Below, piece after piece: positions 8,441 through 29,304 of a DNA stretch of 64,000 nucleotides (positions within the stretch are counted from its first letter, which is position 1; each line of letters opens with the position of its first letter). Below the pieces are notes generated by a model. It ran no database searches. It was not told the origin of the DNA and saw only the letters and a program-made list of their open reading frames with translations. The stretch spans positions 224,001-288,000 of the forward strand of contig CAWCBP010000014.1 in NCBI GenBank assembly GCA_963793865.1, in the 5' to 3' direction. A program made the position numbers and the translations under genes. This stretch comes from an uncultured delta proteobacterium (GTDB lineage: Bacteria; Desulfobacterota; WTBG01).

Positions 8441-8666
8441 TACCAACGCTCTTGAGAAAAAAATTCTCAGATCAGCATATGATTATCTATTAATAGGCTT
8501 CGCGCGCACTGTCAAGGTAAAAATCCTTAACACAGATAGCGCATATCACATGAGTTGTTGTGGGATGTTCTCTCATTAAATCCTGTGAGAATTCCGGCAA
8601 ATGTGCTATAGAGGGATGAAAAAAGTTTGCAGTTTCACTGTCAATCTTTAAGAAAGGTGGTTGTGT

Positions 8667-9227: not shown

Positions 9228-9228
9228 A

Positions 9229-11576: not shown

Positions 11577-11580
11577 TGCA

Positions 11581-12814: not shown

Positions 12815-12832
12815 GGATATGCCTCCTGATGC

Positions 12833-15173: not shown

Positions 15174-15890
15174 ATGGACAAGAAGGCGGTTGAGCGGGCA
15201 TTGAAAGAGGACCTGGGAGTCAAAAAGGAACTCATTGCGCTGAAGCCCTTAAAAGCGCTGCCGAAGGATATTGACGCATATGAAGGGGTGGCCGCGCCGG
15301 GACTGTGCGCCCAGATCGGCGAGGTGCTTAAGAGCGGGAGCATGTTTTACACCACCCGGGAGAACCACCAGTGCTATGAGGGCTTGATCGCGACCGGGGT
15401 GTGCGAGGTTTCACGCGAGGAATACCGCAAGGCGGTTGAGAGCTTCATTGATGACTTCCCCTACCACAAGGATGTCCCCACTGCCATGAGCTTTTATGAA
15501 ACCTGCATCAACGAGATAAAGCCGCCCAAGGTGGAAAACAGCTGCCTGGTGGTGGGTCCCTTGAGCAAAGTCGATGATCCCGACCTCGTCCTCATATTCT
15601 GCAATCCCAAACAGGCGGATATCCTCATACGCATCCAGGCCTACCTGGGAGACCTGGTTAAAGGATACGGGGGCAGCGGCGGTTGTCTGTTTACCATCCG
15701 TCACGCATTTCAGAGCCGGCAGCCGAGCTTTTCCACCAGCGATCTTTCTTGGAGGATGTTTGTGGGGCTCAATGAGAACGAGCTGACCGTGACCTATCCC
15801 TATGAGCAGCTCGCGCGGATAGCACCCCACATCAAGCAGACCGCGGATTATGTCAACAGCTTTTCCTCCATGTTTGACAACCTCGGGTAG
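15174..15890 (+). CDS. DUF169-family protein
   Basis: LCAQ…ENHQCYEG…GPL…PDLVLIFCNPKQ…C…ELTVTYP pattern typical of DUF169. Confidence 0.7.
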   Translation: MDKKAVERALKEDLGVKKELIALKPLKALPKDIDAYEGVAAPGLCAQIGEVLKSGSMFYTTRENHQCYEGLIATGVCEVSREEYRKAVESFIDDFPYHKDVPTAMSFYETCINEIKPPKVENSCLVVGPLSKVDDPDLVLIFCNPKQADILIRIQAYLGDLVKGYGGSGGCLFTIRHAFQSRQPSFSTSDLSWRMFVGLNENELTVTYPYEQLARIAPHIKQTADYVNSFSSMFDNLG

Positions 15891-15938
15891 GCGCGCAGTA
15901 ATGTGCGATGCATTCGCGGCGTAAGGCCGCTCCTACCG
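15885..15938. repeat. GTAG-family REP-like palindrome
   Basis: GGTAGGCGCG…GCGATGCATTCGCGGCGTAAGGCCGCTCCTACC. Confidence 0.7.
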
Positions 15939-15967: not shown

Positions 15968-17221
15968 ATGCCCCTCAAGTGTTACGAGCACTGCTGCTCC
16001 TCATGCATAGCCCTGGCCAATCTGGGTAAGATAGAAGGAGTGATCCCCATACTCCATGGCCCCCAGGCCTGCGCCTTCGGCAACCAGATGGGTTCCATGT
16101 TCTGCAGGCCGTCGCGGCTGCTCACCGTCGGGACCATGCTTAAGAAGAGCGAGGTGATCTTCGGTGGGGAGGAGAACCTCAAACAGCAGATCATCAATGT
16201 CTACCGCCAGTATAAACCCAGGATTATCGTCATCATCAGCACCTGTGTCCCCCAGCTCATCGGGGAGGACGTGAAGGGCGTCATCACCGAGCTGCAGGAG
16301 CAGATTCCTGAATTGAAGGTGACGTACTGCGAGACAGGATTCAATCATCCCCGGTCCACCCCCATGGGGAATGATGTTTCCTGGAAGGCCATCGTTGACG
16401 TTCTCGAGACGCAGGAGATGGTGAAAAACTCGGTAGGGCTGCTGGGGCGCGCGGGACAGGACGCGGACAGCCTGGGAACGCTCACCGCGCCCCTCCGGGA
16501 AGCGGGCATTACCACCTACGCCTTTCCCGCCGGCCACCTTGACGAGATGGCCGGGATCGTTAAGGCTGAATATCTCTGTCCCATTCAGCTGGTTCCCTAT
16601 CTCACCTGCAGGCGCTTGAGCGAGCGGTTCGGTTCGGTGGTAAAGTTTTTTGAGATTCCGGCGGGCATTGAAGGCACATCCCGTTTCCTGCGGGGTGTGG
16701 CGGAGCTCACCGGCAATCAGCAGCTCCCGGGGATCATTGACCGCGAGGAGGCACGGGTGCTTCCCCGCTTGCAAAAGATCCAGGCGCGCTTCAGGGAAGA
16801 GCCGGTCAGGGCCCTGCTGGTTACCGGGCCGTCCAATGAGATGTCCATTGGAAAAATCCTTGCCGAGTTCGGGGCCGAGGTAATCATCGTTCCCGCCATG
16901 CGCAACGCCTTCGCCCGTCAGGAGCAAAATATCCTTCGTGACCGCTACGGGTCCCGCATCACCTTTCATGAAGCTGACTTTGACACGGTGGCACAGCTGA
17001 CCGATGTGTATAAACCGGATGTGGTCTTTGCCGATTTTCAGGGGCGGGTTGAGCTGGTGCACCGGCTTGTCCCCTGCCTCATCAATGAAAATTACTTGAA
17101 TGAGTACGGGTACGACTATGCCATCGACTTTGGCGAGCATTTTTTTGAAAACCTCAAGATGCCGGTTTTCAGGGAGTGGCAGGATTTGATGGATCGCTAC
17201 GGGGAGGGCAACTATGCCTGA
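15968..17221 (+). CDS. Nitrogenase component-1-like reductase, subunit 1 (BchN/BchY-like)
   Basis: Three-Cys cluster-ligand pattern CSSC…HGPQAC…STC, plus EVIFGGEENL, LIGEDV, P-x-GIEGT-x-RFL. Confidence 0.8.
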   Translation: MPLKCYEHCCSSCIALANLGKIEGVIPILHGPQACAFGNQMGSMFCRPSRLLTVGTMLKKSEVIFGGEENLKQQIINVYRQYKPRIIVIISTCVPQLIGEDVKGVITELQEQIPELKVTYCETGFNHPRSTPMGNDVSWKAIVDVLETQEMVKNSVGLLGRAGQDADSLGTLTAPLREAGITTYAFPAGHLDEMAGIVKAEYLCPIQLVPYLTCRRLSERFGSVVKFFEIPAGIEGTSRFLRGVAELTGNQQLPGIIDREEARVLPRLQKIQARFREEPVRALLVTGPSNEMSIGKILAEFGAEVIIVPAMRNAFARQEQNILRDRYGSRITFHEADFDTVAQLTDVYKPDVVFADFQGRVELVHRLVPCLINENYLNEYGYDYAIDFGEHFFENLKMPVFREWQDLMDRYGEGNYA

Positions 17222-18962
17222 TGGTTCAGCGGGCGGTCAGCGGCGCGAGACGTTTTCAGCCGCCTCAAAGATGAAGGTGAAGGAGATTCATAAGCCCTCA
17301 TCTTTTGAGGGAGCGGTATGGGCCATGCAGGGCATAAGGGACATCCGCCTGATTTTTCACGCGCCGCCGGGATGCTACATGATGCAGCACATGTACTCCC
17401 TCTGTAATGAGTGGCATCCAGATTTTTACAGCACGCTTCTCTCGTACGGAAACGTGATGCAGGGGACAGAGGCGCAGCTGGAGAAGATCCTCGAAAAGGC
17501 GGCGGCGGAAAACCCCGCTGCGATTGTGGTGATCACCTCTCCGGTGGTGGAAATTACCGGTGATGATGTGGCGGGCGTTGCGAAAAAAGTGGGTTATGAC
17601 AGGACCGTGGTCATCCGCCCGGCCCTCGGAGGGTCGCTTGCGGAGGGAAAAGAGCAGGCCCTGCTTGTCCTCGCTGAGCTTATGGACCCGGCGGCGGAGA
17701 AGATGGAGAAAACGGTCAACCTTATCGGCCCGACCTACAACACCTTCAACTGGAGGGCTGATGTTTGTGAGCTGCGAAGAATGCTTTCGCATATCGGCGT
17801 GTCCGTCAATGCGGTGTTAAGCGCGGATTGTACGGTCGACCAGATTTGCAGGGCGCCGGGGGCGCAGCTCAACATCTGTGTCTATCCTTATGACTGCGGA
17901 GAGGCGCTTGCCCGGAGCATGCAGGAACGCTTTGGGCTGCCCTATGTTGCAGCTCGCGTTCCCATAGGATACCGGGAGTCGGCAGCCTGGCTGGAGGAGA
18001 TCGCCCGCTTTTTTCATATTGATGCGGGGGCCTATCTTGCCCGGGAGATGAAAAATGGTTTGGACCTGTTTACCTCGCTTCTGGTTTCCAACACCTTCTT
18101 TGAATCGAGCGTGGCGCTCTCCACCGACAACTGCGACAGCTACAGCGTGGGACTGAGCGGCTTCCTGCAGCGGGAGCTGGGCATGCACGTGTGCTTTGCC
18201 GCGGTATCCACTGAGAAGGCGGGGGAGACAGTTGCCGGGGCATGTGAGCGGGTTTTGCTCAATTCAAGTATCGATGAGAAAAAGAACCTGCTGCTCCAAA
18301 CCTCTCCCACCATTATTCTGGGCAATTATTATGATCTCAAACTGTCAACCGACCTGGGCTTTAAAAATTTTCTTTTCGCAGACATCCCCCTCATTGGCTA
18401 TATCTTCTCCGAGACCACCCCTTTCATGGGCTTTATGGGAGCGCAGCACCTTATCCAGGCAATCGGCAATGAGATCTATACCAAGATTTTTATCGAAACC
18501 AAGGGAGAGCTGGAAGGGGCCATCTCATCGGGCGAGGTGCACTGGGAACTGGATGCGGAACAGGCGTTGGGCAGGATGGCCCAGCTGCTTCCCCATTTTG
18601 TCCGCTCGATTGCCATCAAAAAGCTGCACCAGGTAGCTGATGGGATCGCCGTTGAGCGGGGGACAAGCGTGACCCTTGCCATTTTGCGGGAGGTGGCTGA
18701 ACGATATACGCCCACCCGGTTCAAGGCAAAGTTCTCAACTCTTTTTACGGATATGGAAGGCACAACCCGTCAGCCGGCCGGGGTGGATGATCCGGAGTTT
18801 ACCATGGAATGGGACGCGCCGGCACAAGAGATGCTGGAGATGGTACCCGCTGAATTCAGGCAGCAGGCGGTTGCGGGTACAGAGGCGTATGCGCGGGAAC
18901 ATGGCTACGGTGCCGTTTCAGTCCGGGTGGTGGAGGAGTATCGGAAGGAACTGGGCTTTTAG
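17214..18962 (+). CDS. Nitrogenase component-1-like reductase, subunit 2 (BchB/BchZ-like) with two C-terminal PCP_red-like domains
   Basis: HAPPGC, VNLIGPT…ADVCELRRML, PFMGFMGA; tails WELDAEQAL…PHFVRSIAIKKL and WDAPAQEML…VPAEFR…EAYAREHG; overlaps the upstream gene by 8 nt. Confidence 0.8.
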   Translation: MPDGSAGGQRRETFSAASKMKVKEIHKPSSFEGAVWAMQGIRDIRLIFHAPPGCYMMQHMYSLCNEWHPDFYSTLLSYGNVMQGTEAQLEKILEKAAAENPAAIVVITSPVVEITGDDVAGVAKKVGYDRTVVIRPALGGSLAEGKEQALLVLAELMDPAAEKMEKTVNLIGPTYNTFNWRADVCELRRMLSHIGVSVNAVLSADCTVDQICRAPGAQLNICVYPYDCGEALARSMQERFGLPYVAARVPIGYRESAAWLEEIARFFHIDAGAYLAREMKNGLDLFTSLLVSNTFFESSVALSTDNCDSYSVGLSGFLQRELGMHVCFAAVSTEKAGETVAGACERVLLNSSIDEKKNLLLQTSPTIILGNYYDLKLSTDLGFKNFLFADIPLIGYIFSETTPFMGFMGAQHLIQAIGNEIYTKIFIETKGELEGAISSGEVHWELDAEQALGRMAQLLPHFVRSIAIKKLHQVADGIAVERGTSVTLAILREVAERYTPTRFKAKFSTLFTDMEGTTRQPAGVDDPEFTMEWDAPAQEMLEMVPAEFRQQAVAGTEAYAREHGYGAVSVRVVEEYRKELGF

Positions 18963-18980
18963 ATTCGTGCGCGTAGAACC

Positions 18981-19032
18981 GGTAGGAGCGGCTTTCAGCC
19001 GCGAATGCATCGCGCATGAATGCGCTCCTACA
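18981..19032. repeat. GTAG-family REP doublet (REPIN-like)
   Basis: GGTAGGAGCGGCTTTCAGCCGCGAATGCATCGCGCATGAATGCGCTCCTACA. Confidence 0.8.
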
Positions 19033-19085
19033 GAAATTTTACATATCTTTGGCAAACGTTTCAGCGAACCCAGGGAGAGGGGCCA

Positions 19086-19556
19086 ATGACCAGGGCAGGC
19101 AAAGGCGGGAGGGCAACCGGCGAGATTAATGACCGGATGCTGGTGGTGAAGGACTTTATCGATGAGCTTTACAACAAGACCGTTTTTCGGAACGGGAGAG
19201 CCGCCAATTATGATTTAACCCCTGCTCAAATAAAGGCATTCTTTGCTTTCAAAGAGGATGACCGCGCGTATCCCATCGGCGAACTGGGCAGGAATGCCCG
19301 GGTCAAGAGCTCTACCATCACCGACATGATTGACCGGCTGGAAAAAGAGGGCATTGCCGAACGACTGAAAGACCACGGGGACCGGCGGGTGGTAAAAGTG
19401 CGGCTCACCACCAAGGGCAGGGAAATCAAGAATCAGTTTGTCGTAAGGATGCGATCCGGCATGGAGCAGACATTCTCAAAATTGAGCGAAGGGGAGAAAA
19501 AGGCCCTGCTTGATCACCTCAAGGGGGCATACGAGATATTGAAGAGAATAAAGTAG
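19086..19556 (+). CDS. MarR-family transcriptional regulator
   Basis: LTPAQ…IGELG…STITDMIDRLEKEG…DRRVVKVRLTTKG. Confidence 0.9.
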   Translation: MTRAGKGGRATGEINDRMLVVKDFIDELYNKTVFRNGRAANYDLTPAQIKAFFAFKEDDRAYPIGELGRNARVKSSTITDMIDRLEKEGIAERLKDHGDRRVVKVRLTTKGREIKNQFVVRMRSGMEQTFSKLSEGEKKALLDHLKGAYEILKRIK

Positions 19557-19596: not shown

Positions 19597-20277
19597 ATGC
19601 ATGACGTTCACCGTGATTCTCTCATCACAGAGAAAAAGAAACGGCAGGTAAAAAAATCCGGATCTGCTCATGCGCATGAAGGGCACGATCATTCCCACGA
19701 CCGTGATCACCCTCACGATCATGAAAAGCATCATGGCGACGATGATCATGGGCACGACCACGGGGCTCCTCACGGGCACGACCATGACCACGCCGAAGAT
19801 GCCTATGAAGAACATGATCAGGACTTCCATGGCCATGAACATGCTCACGGGCAGGGAGAGGATGAGGACCGGGCATTCGCGCACATCCACGAACACGGTC
19901 ATGATTTCTTTCACGCGCACCATCACACCCACCATCCGGAGCATGCGGGCGCGGTGCATAAGATTTTCGGTGATCCGCTGAGGGACTGGTTTGCCGCCTT
20001 GTTAATGCTGCTCCTGATGGGGGCGGGGTATTTCAAGTTGCTTCCCGGATACCTGCCGGAGGGGATGCTGCTCTGCGCCGCAGTTATCGGTGTTTTCCCG
20101 CTGCTTAAAAATGCGCTCTTTGATGCGCTCTATAAAAGGAGGTTCCGTTTTGAATTGCCGGTCGGAATCCTCCTGCTTGCCGGGCTCTTCATGGGGAAGT
20201 TTCTGGAGGTGGCCCTCATTGCCCTGCTGCTGCTGGTGGGAAGTTTTATGAGGCTCAATTTTTCATGGAAGGACTGA
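19597..20277 (+). CDS. His-rich membrane protein resembling a detached P1B-ATPase N-terminal metal-binding/MA-MB segment
   Basis: About 100 aa of His/Asp-rich sequence followed by hydrophobic helices containing GVFPLLKNALF. Confidence 0.65.
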   Translation: MHDVHRDSLITEKKKRQVKKSGSAHAHEGHDHSHDRDHPHDHEKHHGDDDHGHDHGAPHGHDHDHAEDAYEEHDQDFHGHEHAHGQGEDEDRAFAHIHEHGHDFFHAHHHTHHPEHAGAVHKIFGDPLRDWFAALLMLLLMGAGYFKLLPGYLPEGMLLCAAVIGVFPLLKNALFDALYKRRFRFELPVGILLLAGLFMGKFLEVALIALLLLVGSFMRLNFSWKD

Positions 20278-20287
20278 ATAACCATGC

Positions 20288-22222
20288 ATGATGTTGCACG
20301 GGATGCGCTGGTTGTTAAGCAATCGGATGGATGCCGTTCCTGCGGGGAGTCACGTTTTGAACAATGTTACTGAACGGTACTGGGCATTTACCAATCCCCT
20401 GGCGTGTATAATTCTCATCTTAATCGCCTGGCGCCAGGGAGAGACCGCACCCGGCGGCATGTATCTCGCACTTGCTGCTGTCGTGCTTTCCGGCTATCCC
20501 ATCGTCAGAAATTCCGTGGTATCCACCATAACCAACAGGAAGTTGAATGCCGAGGTGCTGGTTACCTGCGCGCTCATTGCCTCCATCTGGGTGGGCGAAT
20601 ATCTGGCAGCGGCCATGGTGGTGCTCATGATGAACATCGGCGAGCTTCTGGAGGATGCCACCATAGCCAGGACCGGCGAGGCGGTTCGTGCGCTGATGGA
20701 GCTGAAATCGGATACTGCCCGGGTTGTAAGAGATGGCCGCGAGATGGAATTGGATATCGGTGCGGTCTGCATCGGTGATGTGGTGCTGGTCAGGGCTGGT
20801 GAAACCATCCCCATAGACGGCAGGATAAAAGAGGGGCGGGGTGAAGTGAATCAGGCTCCCATCACGGGTGAATCTGCCTTGATTGCCAAGGGCCCGGGAG
20901 ATGAAGTTTTCGGCGGAACATTGAACCAGCTGGGGGTATTCAGGATTGAAGTGACCCGGGTTGCTGCGGAAACGGTTCTGTCAAAAATCGTGGATTTGGT
21001 TCGCCGCGCGCAAGCGGCAAAACCACCCATTGAAAGGATAGCTGATCGTTTTGCCGGCTGGTTTACTCCAACCATGCTGGGCCTGGCATTTTTGGTCTGG
21101 TTCGTTACCGGAGAGGTGCTTCGTGCGGTAACCGTCCTGGTGGTTGCGTGTCCCTGCGCGCTGGTAATCGCCACACCGACGGCCGTGGTTGCGGGTATCG
21201 GAAATGCGGCACGCCGGGGTATCCTTATCAAAGGAGGGGCGGTGCTTGAAATCATAGGCAAGCTCACCACATTTGTATTTGATAAAACCGGAACGCTCAC
21301 CTACGGCACCCCGGCAGTGCGCCTTGTGCGCAGTTTCGGAAAGGCGTCCGAGCATGAGGTTCTCAGCCTTGCCGGCACGGCGGAGAAACATTCGGAACAC
21401 CCTCTGGCGGAAGCCATTTTAAGGTACTGCCGCGAAAAAGATGCGGAGCCGTCTGAGCCGGAGGAGACGAATGTGGTGGTGGGAAGGGGTGTTGTAGCCA
21501 GAAAAAACGGCACAGAGATTATCGTCGGCAATGAACGCCTTGTGGAAGAAAAAGGCATGCCTCTGACTGACGAGGCGAAGACCTTTTTGAGTGATATGGC
21601 TGACGCGGGCTCAACCGGCGTGCTGGTGGGGCATGGATCGGTGCTTGTCGGCGGTATCGGCATCGCGGATGCGGTCAGGGCGGATGTCAGGCAGTCTATT
21701 GAAAATATAAGGCGCATGGGCATCAGGAAGGTGCTGATGCTGACAGGGGACACGCGGACCGTTGCCGAGGTGATTGGCGCAGGGGTTGGACTCGATGCAA
21801 TAGTGGCCGATCTTCTTCCCGAAGAGAAGCTCCGCTACATAAAAAAATTGAGGGAGCAGGGCGATGTAGTAGCCATGGTAGGAGATGGAATCAATGATGC
21901 GCCTGCGCTGGTCGAAGCAGACGTGGGTATTGCCATGGGGGTTATGGGTACGGATGCAGCCATCGAAGCGGCAGACATAGCCCTTACCGGCGACGATCTC
22001 ACCAAGGCATCAGAGGCCATCGCCCTCTCCCGGAAAACGGTCAGCATAATCAAGCAGAGCATTTTCATGTCGATTGCAATAAACGGGATTGCCCTCATCC
22101 TTGCCTCAGCCGGTGAGATCGGTCCAGTTGTCGGTGCGATCGTTCACAATGTTGGCTCGGTAGTGGTGGTGGGTAATTCGTCGCGCCTTATAGGATATCG
22201 ATTTGATAAAGCGCTGCATTGA
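20288..22222 (+). CDS. Heavy-metal-translocating P1B-type ATPase
   Basis: TGES, CPC (VACPCAL), DKTGT, SEHPLA, TGD, GDGINDAP. Confidence 0.92.
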   Translation: MMLHGMRWLLSNRMDAVPAGSHVLNNVTERYWAFTNPLACIILILIAWRQGETAPGGMYLALAAVVLSGYPIVRNSVVSTITNRKLNAEVLVTCALIASIWVGEYLAAAMVVLMMNIGELLEDATIARTGEAVRALMELKSDTARVVRDGREMELDIGAVCIGDVVLVRAGETIPIDGRIKEGRGEVNQAPITGESALIAKGPGDEVFGGTLNQLGVFRIEVTRVAAETVLSKIVDLVRRAQAAKPPIERIADRFAGWFTPTMLGLAFLVWFVTGEVLRAVTVLVVACPCALVIATPTAVVAGIGNAARRGILIKGGAVLEIIGKLTTFVFDKTGTLTYGTPAVRLVRSFGKASEHEVLSLAGTAEKHSEHPLAEAILRYCREKDAEPSEPEETNVVVGRGVVARKNGTEIIVGNERLVEEKGMPLTDEAKTFLSDMADAGSTGVLVGHGSVLVGGIGIADAVRADVRQSIENIRRMGIRKVLMLTGDTRTVAEVIGAGVGLDAIVADLLPEEKLRYIKKLREQGDVVAMVGDGINDAPALVEADVGIAMGVMGTDAAIEAADIALTGDDLTKASEAIALSRKTVSIIKQSIFMSIAINGIALILASAGEIGPVVGAIVHNVGSVVVVGNSSRLIGYRFDKALH

Positions 22223-22242: not shown

Positions 22243-23202
22243 ATGGAGATTGATTTTTCGCAGGCGGGTTTGTGGACATTGATGGTTGGCACCTTTACGC
22301 TGGCGGCCACCCACACCGTATCGCCGGATCACTGGTTTCCCTTTGTCATGGTGGGCAGGGCAAACAAGTGGAAGGTTTCCTGGGTGCTGGGACTTGCTCT
22401 GCTTGCCGGCATCGGTCACGTGGGAACCTCGGTTTTCATCGGGATGGTGGGGGTGTTTGCGGAAAAGGGTGTCTCAAAAAATATCGCCCTGTTTCTGGAA
22501 AAGGCCACCCCCATGCTGCTCATCGTTTTCGGTTTCGGATATGCCGCGTATGCCCTTTACAAACAACGTGTGGGATCCCTGGGGCACTCCCACGGCATAC
22601 CCATTATCAATAAGTGGCTCGGTATCAATGCCCATGCTTATGATCTGCCGGGACAAACCCACGGCCATGCCCAGGATGTGTGTCTTACAATCGGCGGGAA
22701 GTTTGTTATTTGTCTTCATAAACTGGATATAGTGACGTACGTCGTTCATGATGATCACATGCACGGCTATGACGCCACCGCCGAGGCGGATCATGAACAT
22801 AAGCACTTTCACGACGAGAAACTGCATGAGCACCGGCACAAACACAGCGTCAAAGGGATCGACGGGTTCGTCCACAGCCATGGAGATGAAAACCCCCAGG
22901 AGGGGGTGCGTGACCTGAAGGATAAAAGGGCCGGATGGGGATTGGTGGCGATTCTGGGCTTGACCCCCTGTATTGCCCTGCTGCCCCTGACCTTTGCTGC
23001 GATTAAGTACGGCACCGGGGCAGTGATACTGGTCAATATAGCATTTACCATTGGCACGCTGGGAACCATTGTCCTGTTTACCTGGCTGGGATACCTGGGG
23101 CTTTCCTGGCTTAAACTTGACTTTTTTGAGAAGTACGGTGACGTAATCGCCGGCACCATCATCGGTCTGCTGGGACTTGCCACGAAGGTGTTTGAGCTAT
23201 AG
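22243..23202 (+). CDS. Ni/Co transporter-like membrane protein (NiCoT/RcnA/UreH-like)
   Basis: HTVSPDH (HxxxxDH) motif, GHV, His-rich loop, GLTPC, several TM helices. Confidence 0.7.
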   Translation: MEIDFSQAGLWTLMVGTFTLAATHTVSPDHWFPFVMVGRANKWKVSWVLGLALLAGIGHVGTSVFIGMVGVFAEKGVSKNIALFLEKATPMLLIVFGFGYAAYALYKQRVGSLGHSHGIPIINKWLGINAHAYDLPGQTHGHAQDVCLTIGGKFVICLHKLDIVTYVVHDDHMHGYDATAEADHEHKHFHDEKLHEHRHKHSVKGIDGFVHSHGDENPQEGVRDLKDKRAGWGLVAILGLTPCIALLPLTFAAIKYGTGAVILVNIAFTIGTLGTIVLFTWLGYLGLSWLKLDFFEKYGDVIAGTIIGLLGLATKVFEL

Positions 23203-23232: not shown

Positions 23233-23987
23233 ATGAGTGATATCATTACCGACATAGGATTTGATTCCAAAAGTCTATGGCAGGCCAAGGGATTTGAGCC
23301 GCACTCGTTTCCGGAGAGCACCTGGCCGCATTTAAGGGAGCTGCAATTGAAACGGCTCACCAGCGCAGAAGGCGAAGATTTGACCCCGGTGCAGGAGATG
23401 ATCAGGCGTCCCATGTGTGAAGGCACCTTTCGCCACTTTCATAATCAAAAGATAGAAAAGCTGGCCCTGATGTGGGTGCTTATCTCCAAAAGCATTGCAG
23501 GAGGAAGCTGGGTGGGATGGCCCACTGATGACTACGATTTTCCCGCCCTCATCATTGCCTGGGAGGAATCGAAGAAACGGCTGCACATCATCATCGATCT
23601 CATGCCTATAGCGGACTGCGTGGAATACGAGTGGTACCGGGAAAAGTACCTGGATGGCATAGAACCCGTATACAATGAATACAAGGATCTCATCGGGCCG
23701 AACTCGACCTACCGCTGGTTCCGTGCCATGCAGGGTCCCTACCACATCTTTGATGGGCCGGGTGAAAAACGGGACAGGTCGCTGCAGTGTGAAATTGAGT
23801 ATATCAAACAATGGGTCAGGGTGGTACAGGAGGCGGAGCCGGTAAAGGATGAAGAGTATAAACAATACGTGATCCGGCGGAAGAAGATCCTTCAGACACA
23901 GCTGCGGCAGCGGGACCCGCTGGGATCGGTGCTGATGCGCACCCTTGGAGAGGAACTGGGGAAGAAAACCATCTTGGGTACACATAG
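23233..23987 (+). CDS. RCCR/ferredoxin-dependent bilin reductase-like protein (paralogue 1). The ORF track runs to 24069; the real stop is probably TAG at 23985-23987.
   Basis: WPTDDYDFPAL…IIDLMPIADCV…YREKY…WFRAMQGPY…YIKQW…RDP…LG; colinear with 25310..26089. Confidence 0.6.
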
Positions 23988-23993
23988 AGGGGG

Positions 23994-24165
23994 AATTTCA
24001 AAGTCCAAAGATCAAATTTCAAAACAAGTTCAAATGACCAAAATGCAAATGTATACAAATCCTCTTTGAGGCAGTGTGCATATCTTGGGGAGCAGGAGCG
24101 TTTTGACTATTTGATATTTGGACTTTGGATTTGCTTTGGATTTGGTGCTTTGAAATTTGGATTTG
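23994..24165. repeat. Inverted element built of degenerate A-rich/T-rich short repeats
   Basis: Left arm AATTTCAAAGTCCAAAGATCAAATTTCAAAACAAGTTCAAATGACCAAAATGCAAAT; right arm TTTGATATTTGGACTTTGGATTTGCTTTGGATTTGGTGCTTTGAAATTTGGATTTG. Confidence 0.65.
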
Positions 24166-24244
24166 CACCACAATGATTACTGTGCGCGATTTACACTTAG
24201 CTCAAACGCGGATTGAATCTAAAGAACGGGAAAGGAGGAACGCT

Positions 24245-24649
24245 ATGGCTTCGATGCTTGAAATAATGAAACGTGGTGCTGAGCTGGTCAATGCGGATGA
24301 GGAGTTCAAGGCCCAGATGGTTGAGCTTGACGGGGATATCATCTTCTGGCGTTTTGAAGATGACCAGCCCGCGGTTACCACCCGGCTGGACAAAGGAGTG
24401 ATAGTGGTTGAGGGAGGCGAGCATCCCGATTCCCAGATCGGGATGAAGCTCAAGGCCAAGGTGCTCCTGGACGTGATTGACAATTCCCTCGAGGCCAAGA
24501 TGATGTACACCTACACGGAGTTAGTCAAAGGCGACATTGAGCTGGCCCGTCACCATGTGTTTGCACTGGTTCCCTACATCTACGGCATGCAGGACTACTA
24601 TGATTCCGACGCAGCATTCAAGAAGATGGTGGTTGAAAAAAAGGGGTGA
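24245..24649 (+). CDS. SCP2 sterol-carrier-like lipid-binding protein
   Basis: AAGGAGG RBS; GVIVVEGGEHPDSQIGMKL…LVKGDIELA, an SCP2-like pattern. Confidence 0.55.
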   Translation: MASMLEIMKRGAELVNADEEFKAQMVELDGDIIFWRFEDDQPAVTTRLDKGVIVVEGGEHPDSQIGMKLKAKVLLDVIDNSLEAKMMYTYTELVKGDIELARHHVFALVPYIYGMQDYYDSDAAFKKMVVEKKG

Positions 24650-24890: not shown

Positions 24891-24920
24891 GGGCACATTT
24901 ATGTGCGATGATGTAACTCT

Positions 24921-24967
24921 GTAGGAGCGCATTCATGCGCGATTAATTAGCGGCTAAAGCCGCTCCG
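24921..24967. repeat. GTAG-family REP-like palindrome
   Basis: GTAGGAGCGCATTCATGCGCGATTAATTAGCGGCTAAAGCCGCTCC. Confidence 0.7.
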
Positions 24968-25309: not shown

Positions 25310-26089
25310 ATGCCTGAATATCATCTGGAAAAAGAAGTTGGCTTTAAGTGTGACACCTGGCCGGCCAAGAATGTCCCCAATATCCGGCCATTCCCGGAGG
25401 AGTGCTGGGAAATTCTCCGGACCCTTGATCTCCGGCCATTGAGAGGTGAATACCAGGGCTACAATATGGATCTGCTGCTGGAGAATCTAGATTCTCCCAT
25501 GGCCAAAGGGGCCGTTCGGGTTTTTGAATCAGATAAGATCGAGAAGGTTTGCATCTGGTGGCAGGTGCTCTCAGGCCGGTCGCTTTCTGGGGCTGTCATC
25601 GGTTTCCCGCGGGATGATTATGATTTTCCGGTCATGCTGATTGACTGGGACGAAGGCCGCGGTCCCGGGCATGGGATGGTTGATCACATGCCGCTCTGCG
25701 ATATCGTGCTCAATGAAGAGTACCGCTTGAAATATCTTGATAAACTGGACAACACCTTCCGTGAGTACTATGACATTATCGGGCCTCCCTCCCTGCACGT
25801 CTGGTTTCGGACCCTGTCCGGCCCCTACTACAGTTTCTTCAGAACGCAGGCAGGGGGAACCCCGGAATATCGGCAGCGCATTTTAAATCTTCCGCTCAGG
25901 TATTTGGAGAAGTGGGCTGAAACGGTGAAAGAGGCACAGCCCATCACCGATCCGGCCCACCGGGAGTATTGCATTAAGAGAAAACGGGTCCTCCAGGAGT
26001 GGCTGTTTGTCCGCGATCCGGTGACATCGGTCATGCTGCGTTGCTATGGAAAGGAAATCGGTTCGCTGGTGATGAAGGGACTCTCTTAA
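25310..26089 (+). CDS. RCCR/ferredoxin-dependent bilin reductase-like protein (paralogue 2)
   Basis: FPRDDYDFPVM…VDHMPLCDIVLNEEYRLKY resembles RCCR LDLPxRKDLVLxPDYL; YLEKW…RDP…YG tail. Confidence 0.65.
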   Translation: MPEYHLEKEVGFKCDTWPAKNVPNIRPFPEECWEILRTLDLRPLRGEYQGYNMDLLLENLDSPMAKGAVRVFESDKIEKVCIWWQVLSGRSLSGAVIGFPRDDYDFPVMLIDWDEGRGPGHGMVDHMPLCDIVLNEEYRLKYLDKLDNTFREYYDIIGPPSLHVWFRTLSGPYYSFFRTQAGGTPEYRQRILNLPLRYLEKWAETVKEAQPITDPAHREYCIKRKRVLQEWLFVRDPVTSVMLRCYGKEIGSLVMKGLS

Positions 26090-26125: not shown

Positions 26126-26404
26126 ATGCCGAAAATCAGTCAGGATGATATCGTTCAGATTGAAATACGGATTGATGAAGAAAAGTGTGTCGGCTGCGGC
26201 ACCTGCATATCAGTGTGCCCGGTCAATCTGCTTGAACTGAAGGTGGTGGGCAAGAAGAAGAAGAGCTGTGCGCCGGACCAGAGCTTTTGCCTCAAATGCC
26301 ATATGTGCGAATTTCACTGCGGCTACGAGGCGATCAAGGTCTATCCTCCTTTTGAGGGCCAGCAGCCCACCGATCAGGCAAGGGTACCCATGCGCCATCG
26401 ATAG
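26126..26404 (+). CDS. 2x[4Fe-4S] ferredoxin
   Basis: CVGCGTCISVCP and CLKCHMCEFHC. Confidence 0.9.
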   Translation: MPKISQDDIVQIEIRIDEEKCVGCGTCISVCPVNLLELKVVGKKKKSCAPDQSFCLKCHMCEFHCGYEAIKVYPPFEGQQPTDQARVPMRHR

Positions 26405-26431: not shown

Positions 26432-26545
26432 ATGGAGGGACGCACTCCGTTGCGTCCGCTAATTTATTCGGCCACGACAGAGCGTGGCCCTCCAGAACCT
26501 TATTAAGCAGTAGGAGCGGCTTCAGCTGCGATGTATCGCGCAGGA
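26432..26545. repeat. Two adjacent REP-like palindromes
   Basis: TGGAGGGACGCACTCCGTTGCGTCC…GGCCACGACAGAGCGTGGCCCTCCA, then GTAGGAGCGGCTTCAGCTGCGATGTATCGCG. Confidence 0.6.
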
Positions 26546-26566
26546 AGCGGAATTAAACAAGGGCGT

Positions 26567-28000
26567 ATGAAGGTACTCCTTATCCAGCCACCCATGTATC
26601 ATCAAAAGGTTCAGTTATCCCCCAATTTGGGACTGGCCTCCATTGCCGCCGTTCTTGAGCGGGATGGTGTCCGGGTGGGAGTGCTTGATGCCGCCGCGGA
26701 AGATCTCTCCTATACGGATATTTTGGAACGGGTCCGGGCCTTTAAGCCCCGCGTCGTGGGCGCCGGGGGGCAAACGCCGGTGGCACCCCGATCCATGGCC
26801 ATTTTTAGCCGCATCAAACAGGAGATAAGCCGGGACATTACAACCATTGCCGGCGGTCCGCACTTCAGCTTTACCGACCATGAATCACTTCAGGAGTGCC
26901 GGGAACTTGACATCGTGGTGCGCGGTGAAGGAGAGGCGACCATCAGTCATTTGTGCAAAGCACTCGAAACGGGAGAATCACTCAACAATGTACAAGGCAT
27001 AACCTTCCGTGACCACAATGGATCCATCGTGCGCAATGCCGACCGTGAGCCGATTGCCGATATTGACTCCCTGCCATTCCCTGCCTGGCACCTGTTTCCG
27101 CTGGACAAGTACCACTGGGTGGGAAACCGGCTGCTTGCCGTTTCCTCATCCCGGGGATGCCCGTTCAGATGCCCCTATTGCATAACCTGGAAAGTCCATT
27201 CGGGAGTCCGCCATAGAAGGCCTGCCAAAATAGTTGAAGAAATGGTATGGGTTAAAAAGAATTTTAACCACGATACCTTCTTCTTCCAGGATGATGCCTC
27301 GTTTCTGGTGCGTGAGCAGATGGAGGGGTTTCTGGACGCACTGGAAGCCTGCGGAGAGAAGCTGTACTGGTACTATGAAACCAGGGAGGATGTTTTTCTC
27401 GGTTACCGGGATCTCTGGAAGAGGATGAAGCACAACGGCCTGTTTAAAATTGTCTTCGGGCTTGAGACCCCGGACCCTGCAATGCGGGAGAGGTTCGGCA
27501 AAAAGGCCTTTGACGCGCGGGCGGTTGAGCAGATGATGGATACGCTTGAGCACGAGCTGGACATAATGGTGTCCGTGTATCTCCTGTTCGGGCTGCCTGA
27601 GGATACGGAAGAGTCTTTGAAGGAGATACTTGATTATGGTAAGCATCTCTATCCCGCCCACTGCTCATTTATCGTCGGCTCCATGGCAACCCCCTTTCCC
27701 GGCACTGATATGTATGAGGACCTGAAGCGGCGGGATATGATAACCAGCTATAACTGGAAAGACTACGGGTTCGGCACCTCGGTTATCAGGACCAGCATCG
27801 CGCCGGAAAAACTTCAGGAGGTATTTAAGGGCTTTTGGATAAAAACCTATGTGCGGCCCAGGGCATTTTTACGCCAGATTCAATTCCTGTTATCCGGCAA
27901 CCGCTTTCGCCGGGCAATGGCAAAACAATATGTAAAGATGGCCGTGGAAATGATATCGGATGTCAAGAAGATGAGCGGTGAAAAGGATGAGGGTTTCTAG
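26567..28000 (+). CDS. Cobalamin-binding radical SAM enzyme (class B; BchE-like)
   Basis: N-terminal B12 domain (PNLGLASIAA…GGPH…RGEGE); SRGCPFRCPYCITWK (CxxxCxxC); TPFPGT. Confidence 0.88.
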   Translation: MKVLLIQPPMYHQKVQLSPNLGLASIAAVLERDGVRVGVLDAAAEDLSYTDILERVRAFKPRVVGAGGQTPVAPRSMAIFSRIKQEISRDITTIAGGPHFSFTDHESLQECRELDIVVRGEGEATISHLCKALETGESLNNVQGITFRDHNGSIVRNADREPIADIDSLPFPAWHLFPLDKYHWVGNRLLAVSSSRGCPFRCPYCITWKVHSGVRHRRPAKIVEEMVWVKKNFNHDTFFFQDDASFLVREQMEGFLDALEACGEKLYWYYETREDVFLGYRDLWKRMKHNGLFKIVFGLETPDPAMRERFGKKAFDARAVEQMMDTLEHELDIMVSVYLLFGLPEDTEESLKEILDYGKHLYPAHCSFIVGSMATPFPGTDMYEDLKRRDMITSYNWKDYGFGTSVIRTSIAPEKLQEVFKGFWIKTYVRPRAFLRQIQFLLSGNRFRRAMAKQYVKMAVEMISDVKKMSGEKDEGF

Positions 28001-28112: not shown

Positions 28113-29279
28113 ATGTCGATGACCAATTACCTTTTTACCTCTGAATCAGTGACAGAGGGGCATCCGGACAAGGTTGCCGATCAAATATCTGATTCCATTC
28201 TTGACGCCATTCTTGCCAAGGATAAAAAGGCGCACGTTGCCTGTGAAACCATGGTTACAACCGGCATGGCCATTGTTGCCGGTGAAATCACCACCAACTG
28301 CTATGTACACATACCCGATATTGTCAGGCAAACCATAAAGGACATAGGATACAATGATTCAAGCATGGGCTTTGACTGGGAAACCTGCGCGGTTATCACC
28401 TCCATTGATACCCAGTCACCGGATATCGCCATGGGTGTCAATCCCCGGAAAGGTAAAAAGCAGGGTGCCGGGGACCAGGGACTGATGTTCGGCTACTCCT
28501 GCGCGGAGACCCCGGAGCTGATGCCCATGCCCATCAGCTATGCCAATAAGCTGGCGCGACGACTGGCTGAAGTCCGAAAGAAAGGCATCCTTGATTTTTT
28601 GAGGCCCGACGGGAAGTCACAGGTTACCGTGGAGTATCTTGACGGTCATCCCAAGCGGGTTGATACCGTGGTGATCGCGGCCCAGCACAACCCCACGGTC
28701 AAGGACAAGGTTTTGCGCGAAGGCATTATAGAGGAAGTGATAAAGCAGGTGATACCGGCAAAAATGCTGGACGGTAAGACCAAGTACCATATTAATTCTA
28801 CCGGCCGGTTTGTGCAGGGCGGTCCCAAGGCTGACTGCGGCCTGACCGGGAGAAAGCTTATCTGTGATACCTACGGCGGACAGGGGAGTCACGGCGGCGG
28901 TTCCTTTTCCGGGAAAGATCCTTCCAAGGTGGACCGGTCGGCGTCCTATATGGCCCGCTATGTCGCAAAAAATATTATTGCCGCCGGCCTGGCCAGACGG
29001 TGCGAGGTACAGCTTTCCTACAGCATCGGCGTTCCTGAACCGGTTTCGGTGATGATCGACACCTCCAACACCAGCAAGATTCCGCCCGACGAAATTGCGC
29101 GGCTGGTTATAAAATATTTCCGTTTGACCCCGGCGGAGATGATAAGTTACCTTGATCTCCTGCGGCCGATCTACAAAAAGACCGCCACCTACGGGCATTT
29201 CGGAAGAACGGAACCTGAGTTTACCTGGGAGCGGACGGACATGGCTGATAAACTTCGCAGGGCAGCCGGTCTCAAGTAA
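28113..29279 (+). CDS. metK: S-adenosylmethionine synthetase
   Basis: [36 protein letters not shown]. Confidence 0.98.
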
Positions 29280-29304
29280 TGATACGGCTTGAAAGGGGCA
29301 AGGA

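What the first reader, a model, noticed from the sequence alone, without database searches (positions are those of the whole stretch)
15968..18962. Nitrogenase-like D/K pair with hybrid BchZ/BchB features, a tandem PCP_red tail and no Fe-protein gene
Seen: subunit 1 has three cluster-ligand Cys. Subunit 2 has HAPPGC, with Cys where BchB has its Asp ligand (BchZ-like), a BchB-like VNLIGP…D…E segment and two successive PCP_red-like domains. No NifH/BchL/BchX ATPase (YGKGGIGKS motif) appears in the 64 kb. Inference: a new subfamily, either served by a remote Fe protein or reduced by the co-encoded ferredoxins or DUF169 protein.
Basis: partly seen in the sequence, partly recalled or inferred. Interest (0 to 1): 0.78.

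Follow-up and report, generated by a model that had tools for sequence, protein, structure and literature searches.

The report
Orphan nitrogenase-like tetrapyrrole reductase pair
These two genes encode the catalytic half of an uncharacterised relative of the dark chlorophyll reductases in a non-photosynthetic sediment bacterium; its ATP-driven electron-donor genes lie elsewhere in the genome, and the neighbouring genes suggest that it reduces a haem- or chlorophyll-like ring molecule.

Summary
ORFs 15968-17221 (417 aa) and 17214-18962 (582 aa) are an intact, overlapping nitrogenase-component-1 pair. Subunit 1 keeps three cluster Cys. Subunit 2 has Cys54 where BchB has its Asp ligand and BchZ a Cys, and it ends in two PCP_red-like modules; the first is below Pfam's cut-off but is supported by profile comparison and a model. 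No NifH-type gene lies in the window.

The pair is neither BchNB nor BchYZ: curated model scores are far below cut-off, and the K subunit falls in its own fully supported clade beside BchB and BchZ.

The genome does hold Fe-protein genes. Two tandem NifH-like genes sit on another contig in a paralogous MarR-H1-H2-D-K locus. In the class, the same 22 of 42 genomes carry the K family and the H genes. In all 9 genomes with a window-type pair, the H genes are on a different contig.

Best reading: an ATP-dependent, four-Cys [4Fe-4S] reductase served in trans by H1/H2. It probably acts on a (metallo)tetrapyrrole, given bilin-reductase-like, BchE-like, ferredoxin, metal-efflux and chelatase-like neighbours.

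Substrate, and catabolic versus biosynthetic role, remain open. Membership of the published "Group VI" could not be tested. This scan met the same family before on other DNA.

The parts
15174..15890 (+). DUF169 protein (238 aa), directly upstream of the pair
   Evidence: PF02596 E 4.1e-23. The orthologue is adjacent to the A-type pair only in G000, G425 and G387; elsewhere it is unlinked or absent. A paralogue in the same genome carries a PCP_red-like tail below Pfam's cut-off.
15887..15938 (.). Weaker copy of a genome-wide REP-like palindromic element in the DUF169/A_D spacer
   Evidence: blastn-short: 86.5% identity over 52 nt to the 18975-19035 copy.
15968..17221 (+). A_D: NifD/NifE/BchN-like subunit (417 aa) with three cluster Cys (Cys10, Cys35, Cys93)
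17214..18962 (+). A_K: BchB/BchZ-like subunit (582 aa); Cys54 (codon 17373-17375) is the fourth cluster ligand
   Evidence: AlphaFold model pLDDT 81.9. Foldseek best match is BchB, TM-score by target length 0.86.
18531..18713 (+). Tail module 1 (aa 440-500): PCP_red-like, with the same two 4-residue insertions as the BchZ tail
   Evidence: PCP_red 20.4 bits, below cut-off. It aligns with the single tail of BchB and BchZ. hhalign against module 2 gives E 6e-5.
18795..18959 (+). Tail module 2 (aa 528-582): PCP_red domain, extra relative to BchB and BchZ
   Evidence: PF08369 42 bits in the whole protein and 34 bits alone. It is missing from the more distant relatives P0122 and P0123.
18975..19035 (.). 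REP-like palindromic element just after the A_K stop codon
   Evidence: 115 blastn-short hits in the genome. Depth 577 against about 12 in metagenome contigs, with many different flanks. No Rfam match.
19020..19556 (+). MarR-family regulator
   Evidence: PF01047 E 3e-10. It is 31-40% identical to the MarR genes that head the B- and C-type loci.
19597..20277 (+). His-rich protein with C-terminal membrane helices; probably the split N-terminal part of the pump that follows
   Evidence: Sequence. The same split arrangement occurs in G108. The link to the pump is inferred.
20288..22222 (+). P1B-type ATPase with a CPC motif
   Evidence: PF00122 and PF00702. The CPC motif is seen in the translation.
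22243..23202 (+). RcnA-like membrane protein with a His-rich loop (weak Ni/Co-efflux match)
   Evidence: NF007454 E 8.1e-5, 22 bits against a cut-off of 195. Sequence.
23233..24069 (+). Bilin-reductase-like protein 1 (FDBR-like)
   Evidence: PF05996 34.6 bits against a cut-off of 31.
24125..24649 (+). Conserved protein of unknown family (the real start is probably nearer 24242)
   Evidence: No Pfam match. 77% identical in G108, in the same position.
25310..26089 (+). Bilin-reductase-like protein 2 (FDBR-like)
   Evidence: PF05996 28.3 bits, below the cut-off of 31. Orthologues are 85-93% identical in 10 other class genomes.
26126..26404 (+). Small ferredoxin with 4Fe-4S binding motifs
   Evidence: PF00037 and related families.
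26531..28000 (+). BchE-like B12-binding radical SAM enzyme
   Evidence: PF02310 and PF04055. TIGR02026 BchE 207.7 bits against a cut-off of 481.
28113..30561 (+). SAM synthetase (MetK) and SAH hydrolase (AhcY)

Best explanation
The two genes encode the catalytic component (by homology an alpha2-beta2 complex) of an ATP-dependent, nitrogenase-like reductase. It belongs to an uncharacterised clade that stands beside BchB/ChlB (DPOR) and BchZ (COR).

By homology it holds one inter-subunit [4Fe-4S] cluster with four Cys ligands, as in COR. Three come from the D-like subunit (Cys10, Cys35, Cys93) and one from the K-like subunit (Cys54).

Its electron donor is not encoded nearby. It is most likely supplied in trans by the two tandem NifH-like ATPases H1 and H2, which lie in a paralogous MarR-H1-H2-D-K locus on another contig. 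The window's pair (type A) is one of up to three paralogous catalytic pairs that share those ATPases.

The substrate is most likely a (metallo)tetrapyrrole, and the chemistry a two-electron reduction of a ring C=C bond. I lean slightly (about 55:45) to breakdown or salvage of environmental pigment rings over synthesis of a new cofactor.

Shown here: gene integrity, the ligand pattern, clade placement, the tandem tail, and the location and co-occurrence of the H genes. Inferred: the cluster type, the use of H1/H2, the substrate class and the direction of the pathway.
For: Family and ligands.
- Both proteins match PF00148.
- Cys ligands align to NifE, BchB and BchZ positions and are invariant in the family.
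- The fold is closest to BchB: Foldseek E 7e-21, TM-score by target length 0.86.

Separate clade.
- BchB model 165.8 bits against a cut-off of 490; BchZ 132.5 against 529; BchN 66 against 420; BchY 29 against 425.
- In the 49-row tree, the A, B and C types plus three representatives form a clade with SH-aLRT 100. It sits in a 95%-supported set with the BchB and BchZ clades.
- Among 1.84 billion representatives, only 17 score E < 1e-30. Identity falls from 51, 42 and 38% to 31% or less.

Fe proteins.
- H1 and H2 lie at C6:8308-10068, followed by a D and a K paralogue.
- Both keep the Walker A motif and both cluster Cys.
- The locus MarR-H1-H2-D-K recurs in 6 of 6 B-type loci examined.
- The same 22 of 42 class genomes hold the K family and the H genes; 20 of the 22 show two H matches.
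- In 9 of 9 A-type genomes, the H genes are on a different contig from the A-type K.
- The segment around the D-subunit cluster Cys is 23 of 26 identical between this genome's A and B types, against 58% overall. This fits a shared docking partner.

Tetrapyrrole context.
- Two FDBR-like genes, a ferredoxin and a BchE-like radical SAM gene lie downstream. They stand in the same order next to the pair in G108.
- A CbiX/ferrochelatase-like gene and an FAD oxidoreductase follow the C-type pair in G035 and G289.
- hemB and a class-III aminotransferase (possibly hemL) adjoin the B locus in G108; an FDBR-like gene and an NmrA-type reductase adjoin it in G172.
- FDBR2 orthologues occur in 7 of 9 A-type genomes against 4 of 33 others.
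- The genome holds 14 FDBR-like hits, 11 above cut-off.

Lean towards catabolism.
- A MarR regulator heads each B- and C-type locus examined, and one follows A_K in the window.
- Metal-efflux genes sit inside the cluster, in the same order in G108.
- The FDBR paralogues lie beside TetR, FadL, MFS and alpha/beta-hydrolase genes.
- The distribution is patchy.
Against: - No experiment and no expression data bear on this.
- The link between A-type pairs and H1/H2 is confounded. Eight of the 9 A-type genomes also hold a B- or C-type pair, and B-type pairs always come with H1/H2. Co-occurrence alone therefore cannot show that the A type uses them.
- Two H genes are present even where there is only one DK pair (G172, G261, G339), so 'one H per DK' is wrong and the division of labour is unknown.
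- The FDBR/BchE-like module is on a different contig from the A-type pair in G035, G289, G411 and G406. It also occurs in two genomes with no nitrogenase-like genes, G423 and G202.
- Kin are not independent, so the counts overstate the association.
- The BchB proton-donor Asp (recalled as Asp274) aligns to Cys in the A type and Asn in the B and C types, so the catalytic detail differs from DPOR (alignment uncertain by 2 residues).
- Other nitrogenase-like enzymes (MAR, ISR) act on small sulfur compounds, so a substrate other than a tetrapyrrole is not excluded (review PMC13474568, passages read).
- All known tetrapyrrole-reducing relatives are biosynthetic. hemB next to one B locus, and MetK/AhcY here, fit biosynthesis equally well.
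Confidence: 0.6

Rival explanations
1. The pair works without a NifH-type Fe protein. It is reduced directly by the co-encoded ferredoxin, or with help from the upstream DUF169 protein.
For: - No H gene lies on the same contig as the A-type K in any of the 9 A-type genomes, and none lies in the window.
- A ferredoxin gene is in the cluster.
- DUF169 is adjacent in G000, G425 and G387.
- A DUF169 paralogue in the same genome carries a PCP_red-like tail at 27.9 bits, below cut-off. This hints that DUF169 and PCP_red-bearing systems meet.
Against: - Every genome with an A-type pair also holds H1/H2 (9 of 9). None of the 20 genomes without H genes has any K of the family.
- The DUF169 orthologue is absent from G108 and G407, which have the pair. 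It is present in G074 and G202, which lack the K family, and unlinked in G035, G289 and G411.
- The ferredoxin sits with the FDBR-like genes, whose family takes ferredoxin as donor by definition.
- By established knowledge of the superfamily, all characterised members need the ATPase.
Confidence: 0.1
2. The pair acts in the biosynthesis of a new reduced tetrapyrrole cofactor, possibly holding Ni, Co or Zn, rather than in breakdown or salvage. This is analogous to DPOR and COR in bacteriochlorophyll synthesis or CfbCD in F430 synthesis.
For: - All characterised tetrapyrrole-reducing relatives are biosynthetic (review PMC13474568).
- hemB and a class-III aminotransferase (possibly hemL) adjoin the B locus in G108.
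- MetK and AhcY follow the BchE-like gene.
- A chelatase-like gene follows the C-type pair.
- The genome can make the tetrapyrrole trunk: hemC, cobA-hemD, hemB, cbiK/X and cbiD.
Against: - MarR regulators accompany the loci, efflux-type metal pumps lie in the cluster, and the distribution is patchy: 22 of 42 class genomes have the family and 9 of 42 the A type.
- There are 14 FDBR-like paralogues with catabolic-looking neighbours such as TetR, FadL, MFS and hydrolases.
- None of these points is decisive.
Confidence: 0.27
3. The pair is simply a member of the published, uncharacterised 'Group VI' nitrogenase paralogues (NflD/NflK), so it is not a separate clade.
For: - Group VI was proposed to reduce a tetrapyrrole and is reported from aquatic 'Myxococcales' (then classed as deltaproteobacteria) as well as Elusimicrobia. 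Some of those genomes hold several H, D and K copies and B12-radical-SAM neighbours (preprint 10.1101/765248, passages read).
- Several unnamed clades lie next to this one in the tree.
Against: - Group VI D and K are described as highly divergent, with variable Cys. Here Cys is invariant, and the K subunit hits the BchB and BchZ models at E 1e-48 and 2e-38 and carries the BchB-type PCP_red tail.
- H1 and H2 score higher on the NifH and CfbC models (about 300 bits) than on BchL (about 212) or BchX (about 178), whereas Group VI NifH is described as sister to Group V.
- None of the best 120 H2 relatives that carry a name is named Elusimicrobia.
- No Group VI reference sequence was available, so this was not tested directly.
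Confidence: 0.15

Closest known systems
DPOR catalytic component BchN/BchB (ChlN/ChlB), Group V nitrogenase-like
   Same: Same fold: the best PDB sequence and structure matches of the K subunit are BchB. Three Cys come from the N/D-type subunit. The K subunit has a PCP_red C-terminal module. The VNLIGP...D..E segment is shared.
   Different: The fourth ligand is Cys, not Asp36. Scores are far below the curated cut-offs. It forms a separate clade. It has a second tail module. The residue aligned to the BchB proton-donor Asp is Cys or Asn. No L-type gene is adjacent. The host lineage looks non-phototrophic: the 22 class genomes with NifH-type matches all show only H1/H2-type ones.
COR catalytic component BchY/BchZ, Group V
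   Same: All four [4Fe-4S] ligands are Cys: three on the Y/D-type subunit and one on the Z/K-type subunit at the same column. The first tail module shares BchZ's two 4-residue insertions relative to BchB.
   Different: BchZ model 132.5 bits against a cut-off of 529; BchY 29.4 against 425. It forms a separate clade. It has an extra PCP_red module. The Fe-protein genes are remote and number two.
Group VI nitrogenase paralogues (NflH/NflD/NflK; Meheust et al. 2020)
   Same: An uncharacterised nitrogenase-like system in non-phototrophs, proposed to reduce a tetrapyrrole. It lacks FeMo-co machinery and sometimes occurs in several copies with B12-radical-SAM neighbours.
   Different: Group VI is described as very divergent with variable Cys and with H genes adjacent. 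Here the Cys pattern is fixed, the tail is BchB-like, and the H proteins score nearer NifH and CfbC. Membership was not tested directly.
[quoted passage not shown]
   Same: An ATP-dependent nitrogenase-like reduction of a metallo-tetrapyrrole. H1 and H2 score about 294-299 bits on the CfbC model. Ni/Co-type efflux genes lie in the cluster.
   Different: CfbD is a homomer. Here there are distinct D and K subunits. The D subunit scores 51 bits on the CfbD model against a cut-off of 268, and H1/H2 stay below the CfbC cut-off of 402.
NifEN (FeMo-co maturase)
   Same: Best PDB sequence match of the D subunit, with the three Cys aligned. It has one [4Fe-4S] cluster at the subunit interface.
   Different: NifE model 91 bits against a cut-off of 505. 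There is no nif context.

Membership tests
Nitrogenase component 1 superfamily (PF00148) | Match above the Pfam gathering score in both subunits | tested here: met
   189.2 and 217.5 bits against a cut-off of 28.6.
DPOR BchB/ChlB (TIGR01278) | Score above the curated equivalog cut-off | tested here: not met
   165.8 bits against 490.35.
DPOR BchB/ChlB | Asp (BchB Asp36) as fourth ligand of the NB cluster | tested here: not met
   Cys54 aligns to that Asp.
DPOR BchB/ChlB | C-terminal PCP_red domain | tested here: met
   PF08369 42 bits at 533-576. A second, weaker copy lies upstream.
DPOR BchB/ChlB | Falls inside the BchB clade | tested here: not met
   Own clade with SH-aLRT 100; the BchB clade is separate, also 100 (quick search, 49 rows).
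DPOR / COR operons | Cognate BchL/BchX-type gene in the same locus | tested here: not met
   None in the window. In 9 of 9 A-type genomes the H genes are on a different contig from the A-type K.
COR BchZ (TIGR02014) | Score above the curated equivalog cut-off | tested here: not met
   132.5 bits against 529.
COR BchZ | Cys as fourth cluster ligand at the BchB-Asp36 column | tested here: met
   Of the four BchZ-type references, one is above the cut-off and three are just below it.
COR BchZ | Falls inside the BchZ clade | tested here: not met
BchN (TIGR01279) / BchY (TIGR02015) for subunit 1 | Score above the curated cut-off | tested here: not met
   66.1 bits against 419.95, and 29.4 against 425.15.
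BchN / BchY / NifE-type subunit | Three Cys ligands to the inter-subunit cluster | tested here: met
   Cys10, Cys35 and Cys93 align to the NifE ligands and are invariant in 9 of 9.
True nitrogenase NifDK | Six-Cys P-cluster (three Cys from each subunit) | tested here: not met
   The K subunit has only one invariant Cys in the cluster region (Cys54). The BchB Cys95-type column holds Pro or Ser.
True nitrogenase NifDK | FeMo-co ligands (Cys275 and His442, A. vinelandii numbering) and nifB/nifEN in the genome | not tested
   Not examined column by column. The genome shows only the two D/K pairs described here in the PF00148 search.
CfbD (TIGR03282) | Score above the curated cut-off; homomeric | tested here: not met
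   51.4 bits against 268.4. Two distinct subunits are present.
Group VI NflD/NflK (Meheust et al. 2020) | Placement with the Group VI reference sequences in a NifH or NifD tree | not testable with these tools
Only indirect contrasts are available.
NifH-type Fe protein (for H1 and H2 on contig C6) | Walker A motif, both [4Fe-4S] Cys, switch regions | tested here: met
   Both keep YGKGGIGKS and both Cys. H1 has Ser where H2 has the switch-I Asp. Scores on the NifH model are 301 and 307 bits against a cut-off of 394, so neither is a true NifH.

The most novel reading that the evidence does not exclude
Non-phototrophic sediment anaerobes use an ATP-driven nitrogenase-like reductase to attack environmental (metallo)tetrapyrroles, such as chlorophyll, haem, or Ni/Co ring compounds. 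This would be the opening, dearomatising step of an oxygen-free breakdown or salvage pathway. One unusual Fe protein, possibly an H1/H2 heterodimer, would serve up to three paralogous catalytic pairs. The released metal would be pumped out, and the products passed to a large set of bilin-reductase-like enzymes.
Probability: 0.2. Interest if true: 0.85.

Novelty: new variant of a known kind. Interest (0 to 1): 0.62.

Why it matters
Nitrogenase-like enzymes with a known tetrapyrrole substrate number only three (DPOR, COR, CfbCD), and all make cofactors. Reviews name the uncharacterised clades as the field's main gap (PMC13474568).

This clade is abundant in freshwater, soil and sediment metagenomes and occurs in bacteria with no photosynthesis genes in view. 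It combines COR's all-Cys cluster with a duplicated BchB-type tail, two distinct Fe proteins encoded in trans, and several catalytic paralogues.

If its substrate is an environmental pigment ring, it would reveal how tetrapyrroles are turned over without oxygen. If it makes a cofactor, that cofactor is unknown. Either way, the loci give a defined set of genes to express and a short list of substrates to try.

Tried and rejected
- BLASTP of the two tail halves found no alignment. Only profile methods detect the repeat.
- The search for related loci in genome contigs gave only two loci.
- H2 homologue names did not settle Group VI membership. No Group VI reference sequences were available, so that test was not done.
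- Literature searches found no paper on this specific clade: 'nitrogenase-like' + 'bilin reductase' + 'radical SAM'; 'nitrogenase paralog'/'tetrapyrrole'/'novel cofactor'; 'nitrogenase-like' + 'DUF169'; 'nitrogenase-like' + 'Desulfobacterota' + 'tetrapyrrole'. Figures and supplements of the review and of the Elusimicrobia paper were not seen and may bear on this.
- Expression: no RNA holder was listed. The one run guessed as RNA is marked 'probably DNA' and covers only parts of the stretch. This gives no evidence either way.
- Rfam over the whole window gave 0 matches.
- I considered complex prediction for DUF169 with the K tail but did not run it. DUF169 is not consistently linked to the pair, and I make no binding claim.
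- I considered H1+H2 as a test of a heterodimer but did not run it. It would pass by likeness to solved NifH homodimers and could not tell hetero- from homodimer.
- I considered whether the broken B-type K on C6 shows that H1/H2 now serve only the A-type pair. This was rejected as evidence. The two +1 insertions may be assembly errors, and relatives G424 and G425 have it open.
- Equal contig lengths suggest that a DUF169 and an A-like K share a contig in three metagenome cases: P0436/P0044, P0478/P0054 and P0412/P0059. This is only an inference from lengths and was not verified.

Full report
**What is there**

ORFs 15968-17221 (P0001, 417 aa) and 17214-18962 (P0002, 582 aa) lie on the + strand, overlap by 8 nt and are uninterrupted. 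Both match the nitrogenase component-1 family PF00148 (E 1.4e-55 and 3.7e-64). P0002 also carries a PCP_red domain at residues 533-576 (42 bits).

Independent metagenome contigs from three DNA runs cover the whole stretch. The only insertion or deletion listed lies at 18995, outside the two genes.

In P0001, Cys10, Cys35 and Cys93 align to the three [4Fe-4S] ligands of NifE. Cys9, 10, 35, 46 and 93 are invariant in 9 of 9 D-type sequences of the family.

In P0002, the Cys of HAPPGC (Cys54) aligns to BchB Asp36. The best PDB sequence hit, 3aet_B, is a BchB chain that has Cys at that position.

Against references labelled by NCBIfam, 4 of 4 BchB sequences have Asp and 4 of 4 BchZ-type sequences have Cys in that column. 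Cys54 is invariant in 13 of 13 family K sequences. Of the four BchZ-type references, one is above the curated cut-off and three are just below it.

The VNLIGP...D..E segment is real, but BchB and BchZ both share it.

The tail is a tandem.
- Module 2 passes Pfam.
- Module 1 (about 444-493) scores 20.4 bits, below the 32.5 cut-off.
- BLASTP of the two halves sees nothing.
- Profile-profile comparison of ten-sequence alignments of the two modules gives E 6e-5 and probability 65% over 45 columns. Module 1 carries two 4-residue insertions.
- The same insertions separate the BchZ tail from the BchB tail.
- The AlphaFold model (35-row alignment, mean pLDDT 81.9) shows strand-helix-helix-strand-helix twice, at 444-498 and 532-579.
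- The model's core is closest to BchB (Foldseek E 7e-21, TM-score by target length 0.86).

No NifH-type gene is in the window. The six-frame PF00142 search found none on contig C14 at E <= 1e-3, and no GKGG[IVLM]GK[ST] motif occurs in any frame.

**Not BchNB, not BchYZ**

| Subunit | Curated model | Score (bits) | Cut-off (bits) |
|---|---|---|---|
| P0002 | BchB | 165.8 | 490 |
| P0002 | BchZ | 132.5 | 529 |
| P0001 | NifE | 91 | 505 |
| P0001 | BchN | 66 | 420 |
| P0001 | BchY | 29 | 425 |
| P0001 | CfbD | 51 | 268 |

HMMER against 1.84 billion cluster representatives found 1349 hits at E <= 1e-3 but only 17 at E <= 1e-30. Full-length relatives fall from 51, 42 and 38% identity to 31% or less.

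I built a 49-row tree (quick IQ-TREE search, SH-aLRT only). It held 10 K proteins read from loci, 8 references labelled BchB or BchZ-type, and 31 other near-full-length representatives from the top. Fragments and lower-ranked hits were left out.

In that tree the window's type (A), two paralogous types (B, C) and three representatives form a clade with support 100. That clade sits in a 95%-supported, unresolved set with the BchB clade (100), the BchZ clade (100) and other unnamed clades. The pair is therefore a separate lineage of about the same rank as BchB and BchZ.

**Where the Fe protein is**

The genome has two strong NifH-family matches, in tandem on contig C6: H1 at 8308-9147 and H2 at 9175-10068. 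A MarR gene precedes them, and a D paralogue (58% identical to P0001) and a K paralogue (about 50% identical to P0002) follow.

Both H proteins keep the Walker A motif and both cluster Cys. H1 has Ser where H2 has the switch-I Asp, and this holds in three genomes. They score about 300 bits on the NifH and CfbC models and about 212 and 178 on BchL and BchX. All of these are below cut-off.

The order MarR-H1-H2-D-K recurs in all 6 B-type loci examined: G000, G289, G035, G108, G172 and G339.

In the 42 genomes of the class:
- 22 have a K of the family at E <= 1e-60, and the same 22 have H1-type matches at E <= 1e-30.
- Of those 22, 20 show two H matches, one shows one, and one shows three broken pieces.
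- A-type K (62% identity or more) occurs in 9 genomes. In all 9 the H genes are on a different contig from the A-type K.
- Eight of the 9 also hold a B- or C-type K. The exception, G406, is in 660 contigs.

Outside the class, 0 of the roughly 360 other phylum genomes sampled had a close match; 8 had only weak ones at E 1e-22 to 1e-29.

The reading 'served by a remote Fe protein' is thus the supported one. There is a caveat: A-type pairs nearly always travel with a B-type locus, so co-occurrence cannot by itself assign H1/H2 to the A type.

The segment around the D-subunit cluster Cys is 23 of 26 identical between this genome's A and B types, against 58% overall. This fits a shared docking partner.

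This genome's B-type K carries two +1 insertions relative to G424 and G425. I cannot tell decay from assembly error.

**Surroundings**

Downstream of the pair lie, in order:
- a MarR gene;
- a His-rich membrane protein and a CPC-type P1B ATPase, which look like a split pump;
- an RcnA-like protein with a His-rich loop (a weak match);
- two bilin-reductase-like (FDBR-like) genes around a conserved unknown;
- a ferredoxin;
- a BchE-like B12 radical SAM gene (207.7 bits against a BchE cut-off of 481);
- MetK and AhcY.

G108 has the same genes in the same order directly upstream of its A-type pair. In G035, G289, G411 and G406 the FDBR/BchE-like module is on a different contig from the A-type pair.

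FDBR2 orthologues (85-93% identical) occur in 7 of 9 A-type genomes and in 4 of 33 others. Two of those four lack any nitrogenase-like gene.

In G035 and G289 the A-type pair is followed by MarR and a third pair (type C), then a CbiX/ferrochelatase-like gene and an FAD oxidoreductase.

B-type loci adjoin:
- DUF1302, DUF1329, BNR and MMPL transport-type genes;
- short-chain dehydrogenases;
- hemB and a class-III aminotransferase in G108;
- an FDBR-like gene and an NmrA-type reductase in G172.

The genome as a whole holds 14 FDBR-family hits, 11 above cut-off. They are scattered beside flavodoxin-like, FAD-dependent, PNPOx-like and HemF-like genes and beside TetR, FadL, MFS and alpha/beta-hydrolase genes.

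The genome also has PCP_red-like modules on a DUF169 paralogue, an MFS transporter, two NIR_SIR/ferredoxin proteins and a CGGC protein. Most of these are below cut-off. The genes for the tetrapyrrole trunk and for corrin synthesis are present.

**DUF169**

The upstream DUF169 gene has an orthologue next to the A-type pair only in G000, G425 and G387. The orthologue is unlinked in G035, G289 and G411, absent at this threshold from G108 and G407, and present in genomes without the K family. It is not an obligate partner.

**How it most likely works**

By homology with DPOR and COR (established knowledge of Group V enzymes), the pair should form a heterotetramer with one [4Fe-4S] cluster per half, here with four Cys ligands as in COR. 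It would receive single electrons from a NifH-type ATPase dimer and reduce a ring C=C bond of a bound tetrapyrrole.

The neighbours fit a (metallo)tetrapyrrole substrate: FDBR-like, BchE-like, ferredoxin, chelatase-like, metal efflux and hem genes.

I lean slightly to breakdown or salvage, on the MarR control, the efflux pumps, the many FDBR paralogues with catabolic-looking neighbours, and the patchy distribution. Biosynthesis of an unknown cofactor is nearly as likely.

The residue aligned to BchB's proton-donor Asp (recalled as Asp274) is Cys in type A and Asn in types B and C. The alignment is uncertain by about 2 residues. The proton chemistry therefore differs from DPOR.

**Literature**

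- I read passages of the Elusimicrobia preprint (10.1101/765248), which defines Group VI.
- I read the outline and passages of the 2026 review (PMC13474568). It lists Groups IV-A to F, V and VI and states that Group VI has no characterised member.
- I read passages of Rockwell et al. 2023 (PMC10151467) on pre-PcyA bilin reductases of non-photosynthetic bacteria. Those passages mention no nitrogenase-like neighbours (0 occurrences of 'nitrogenase').
- Four searches found no paper on this clade.
- Figures and supplements were not seen.

**Earlier notes of this scan**

These notes are unchecked leads.
- The same family, with the duplicated tail, was noted on another genome (e1-757667).
- A MarR operon with two ATPases was noted (e1-4492970).
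- A secreted cytochrome fused to a ferrochelatase-like domain was noted in this same genome (e1-5093265).
- Group VI loci were noted elsewhere in radical-SAM and peptide contexts, which differ from this one.

**Verdict**

The pair is a real member of an uncharacterised, well-populated clade of nitrogenase-like reductases beside BchB and BchZ. Its Fe proteins are encoded in trans. The substrate is unknown but is probably a tetrapyrrole.

Noticed in passing
window 18975-19035; weaker copies at 15887-15938, 8403-8439, 24918-24966 and 39328-39382: A palindromic REP-like element of about 55 nt flanks the D/K pair on both sides. It has 115 blastn-short hits across the genome. In metagenome contigs its depth is about 577 against about 12 for the genes, with many different flanking sequences. 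It has no Rfam match.
   Followed up: partly
G000 genome: 14 places, e.g. C1:27221-27889, C1:871562-872212, C11:151035-151691, C14:217451-218047 (about 6 kb before the window): The genome holds 14 bilin-reductase-family (PF05996) hits, 11 above cut-off, although no photosynthesis genes are in view. Each lies beside different redox, regulator or transport genes.
   Followed up: partly
G000 C14:80625-81599 (DUF169), C14:326975-328525 (MFS), C4:229216-230106, C8:568153-569115, C1:602818-603333: PCP_red-like modules (27-48 bits, mostly below cut-off) are attached to a DUF169 protein, an MFS transporter, two NIR_SIR/ferredoxin proteins and a CGGC-domain protein. The small domain looks like a shared add-on in this organism.
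   Followed up: partly
L012 (G000:C6) 8308-10068: The two tandem NifH-like proteins differ at switch I. H1 has Ser (GCSPKNDST) where H2 has the usual Asp (GCDPKHDST), and this is conserved in three genomes. Both genes are present even in genomes with a single D/K pair, which raises the possibility of a heterodimeric Fe protein.
   Followed up: partly
L012 (G000:C6) about 11783 and about 12959: The B-type K paralogue carries two single-base insertions relative to G424 and G425 and is split into 169-aa and 382-aa ORFs. This may be real decay or an assembly error.
   Followed up: partly
window 19597-22222: A His-rich protein with C-terminal membrane helices is followed 10 nt later by a CPC-type P1B ATPase that has no metal-binding domain of its own. 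It looks like a pump split into two genes, and G108 shows the same split.
   Followed up: no
window 11355-13538, minus strand: Short ORFs of about 124-127 aa match pieces of GatB, amidase (GatA-like) and a class II tRNA synthetase. They may be decayed copies or a frameshifted stretch.
   Followed up: no
G000:C1:21818-22480 and G424:C10:50279-50965: DUF169 paralogue matches contain one in-frame TGA, so they may be selenoproteins.
   Followed up: no
window 25310-26089: FDBR-like protein 2 is 85-93% identical across families of the class, where the A-type K is only 62-85% identical. This suggests unusually strong constraint or recent transfer.
   Followed up: no
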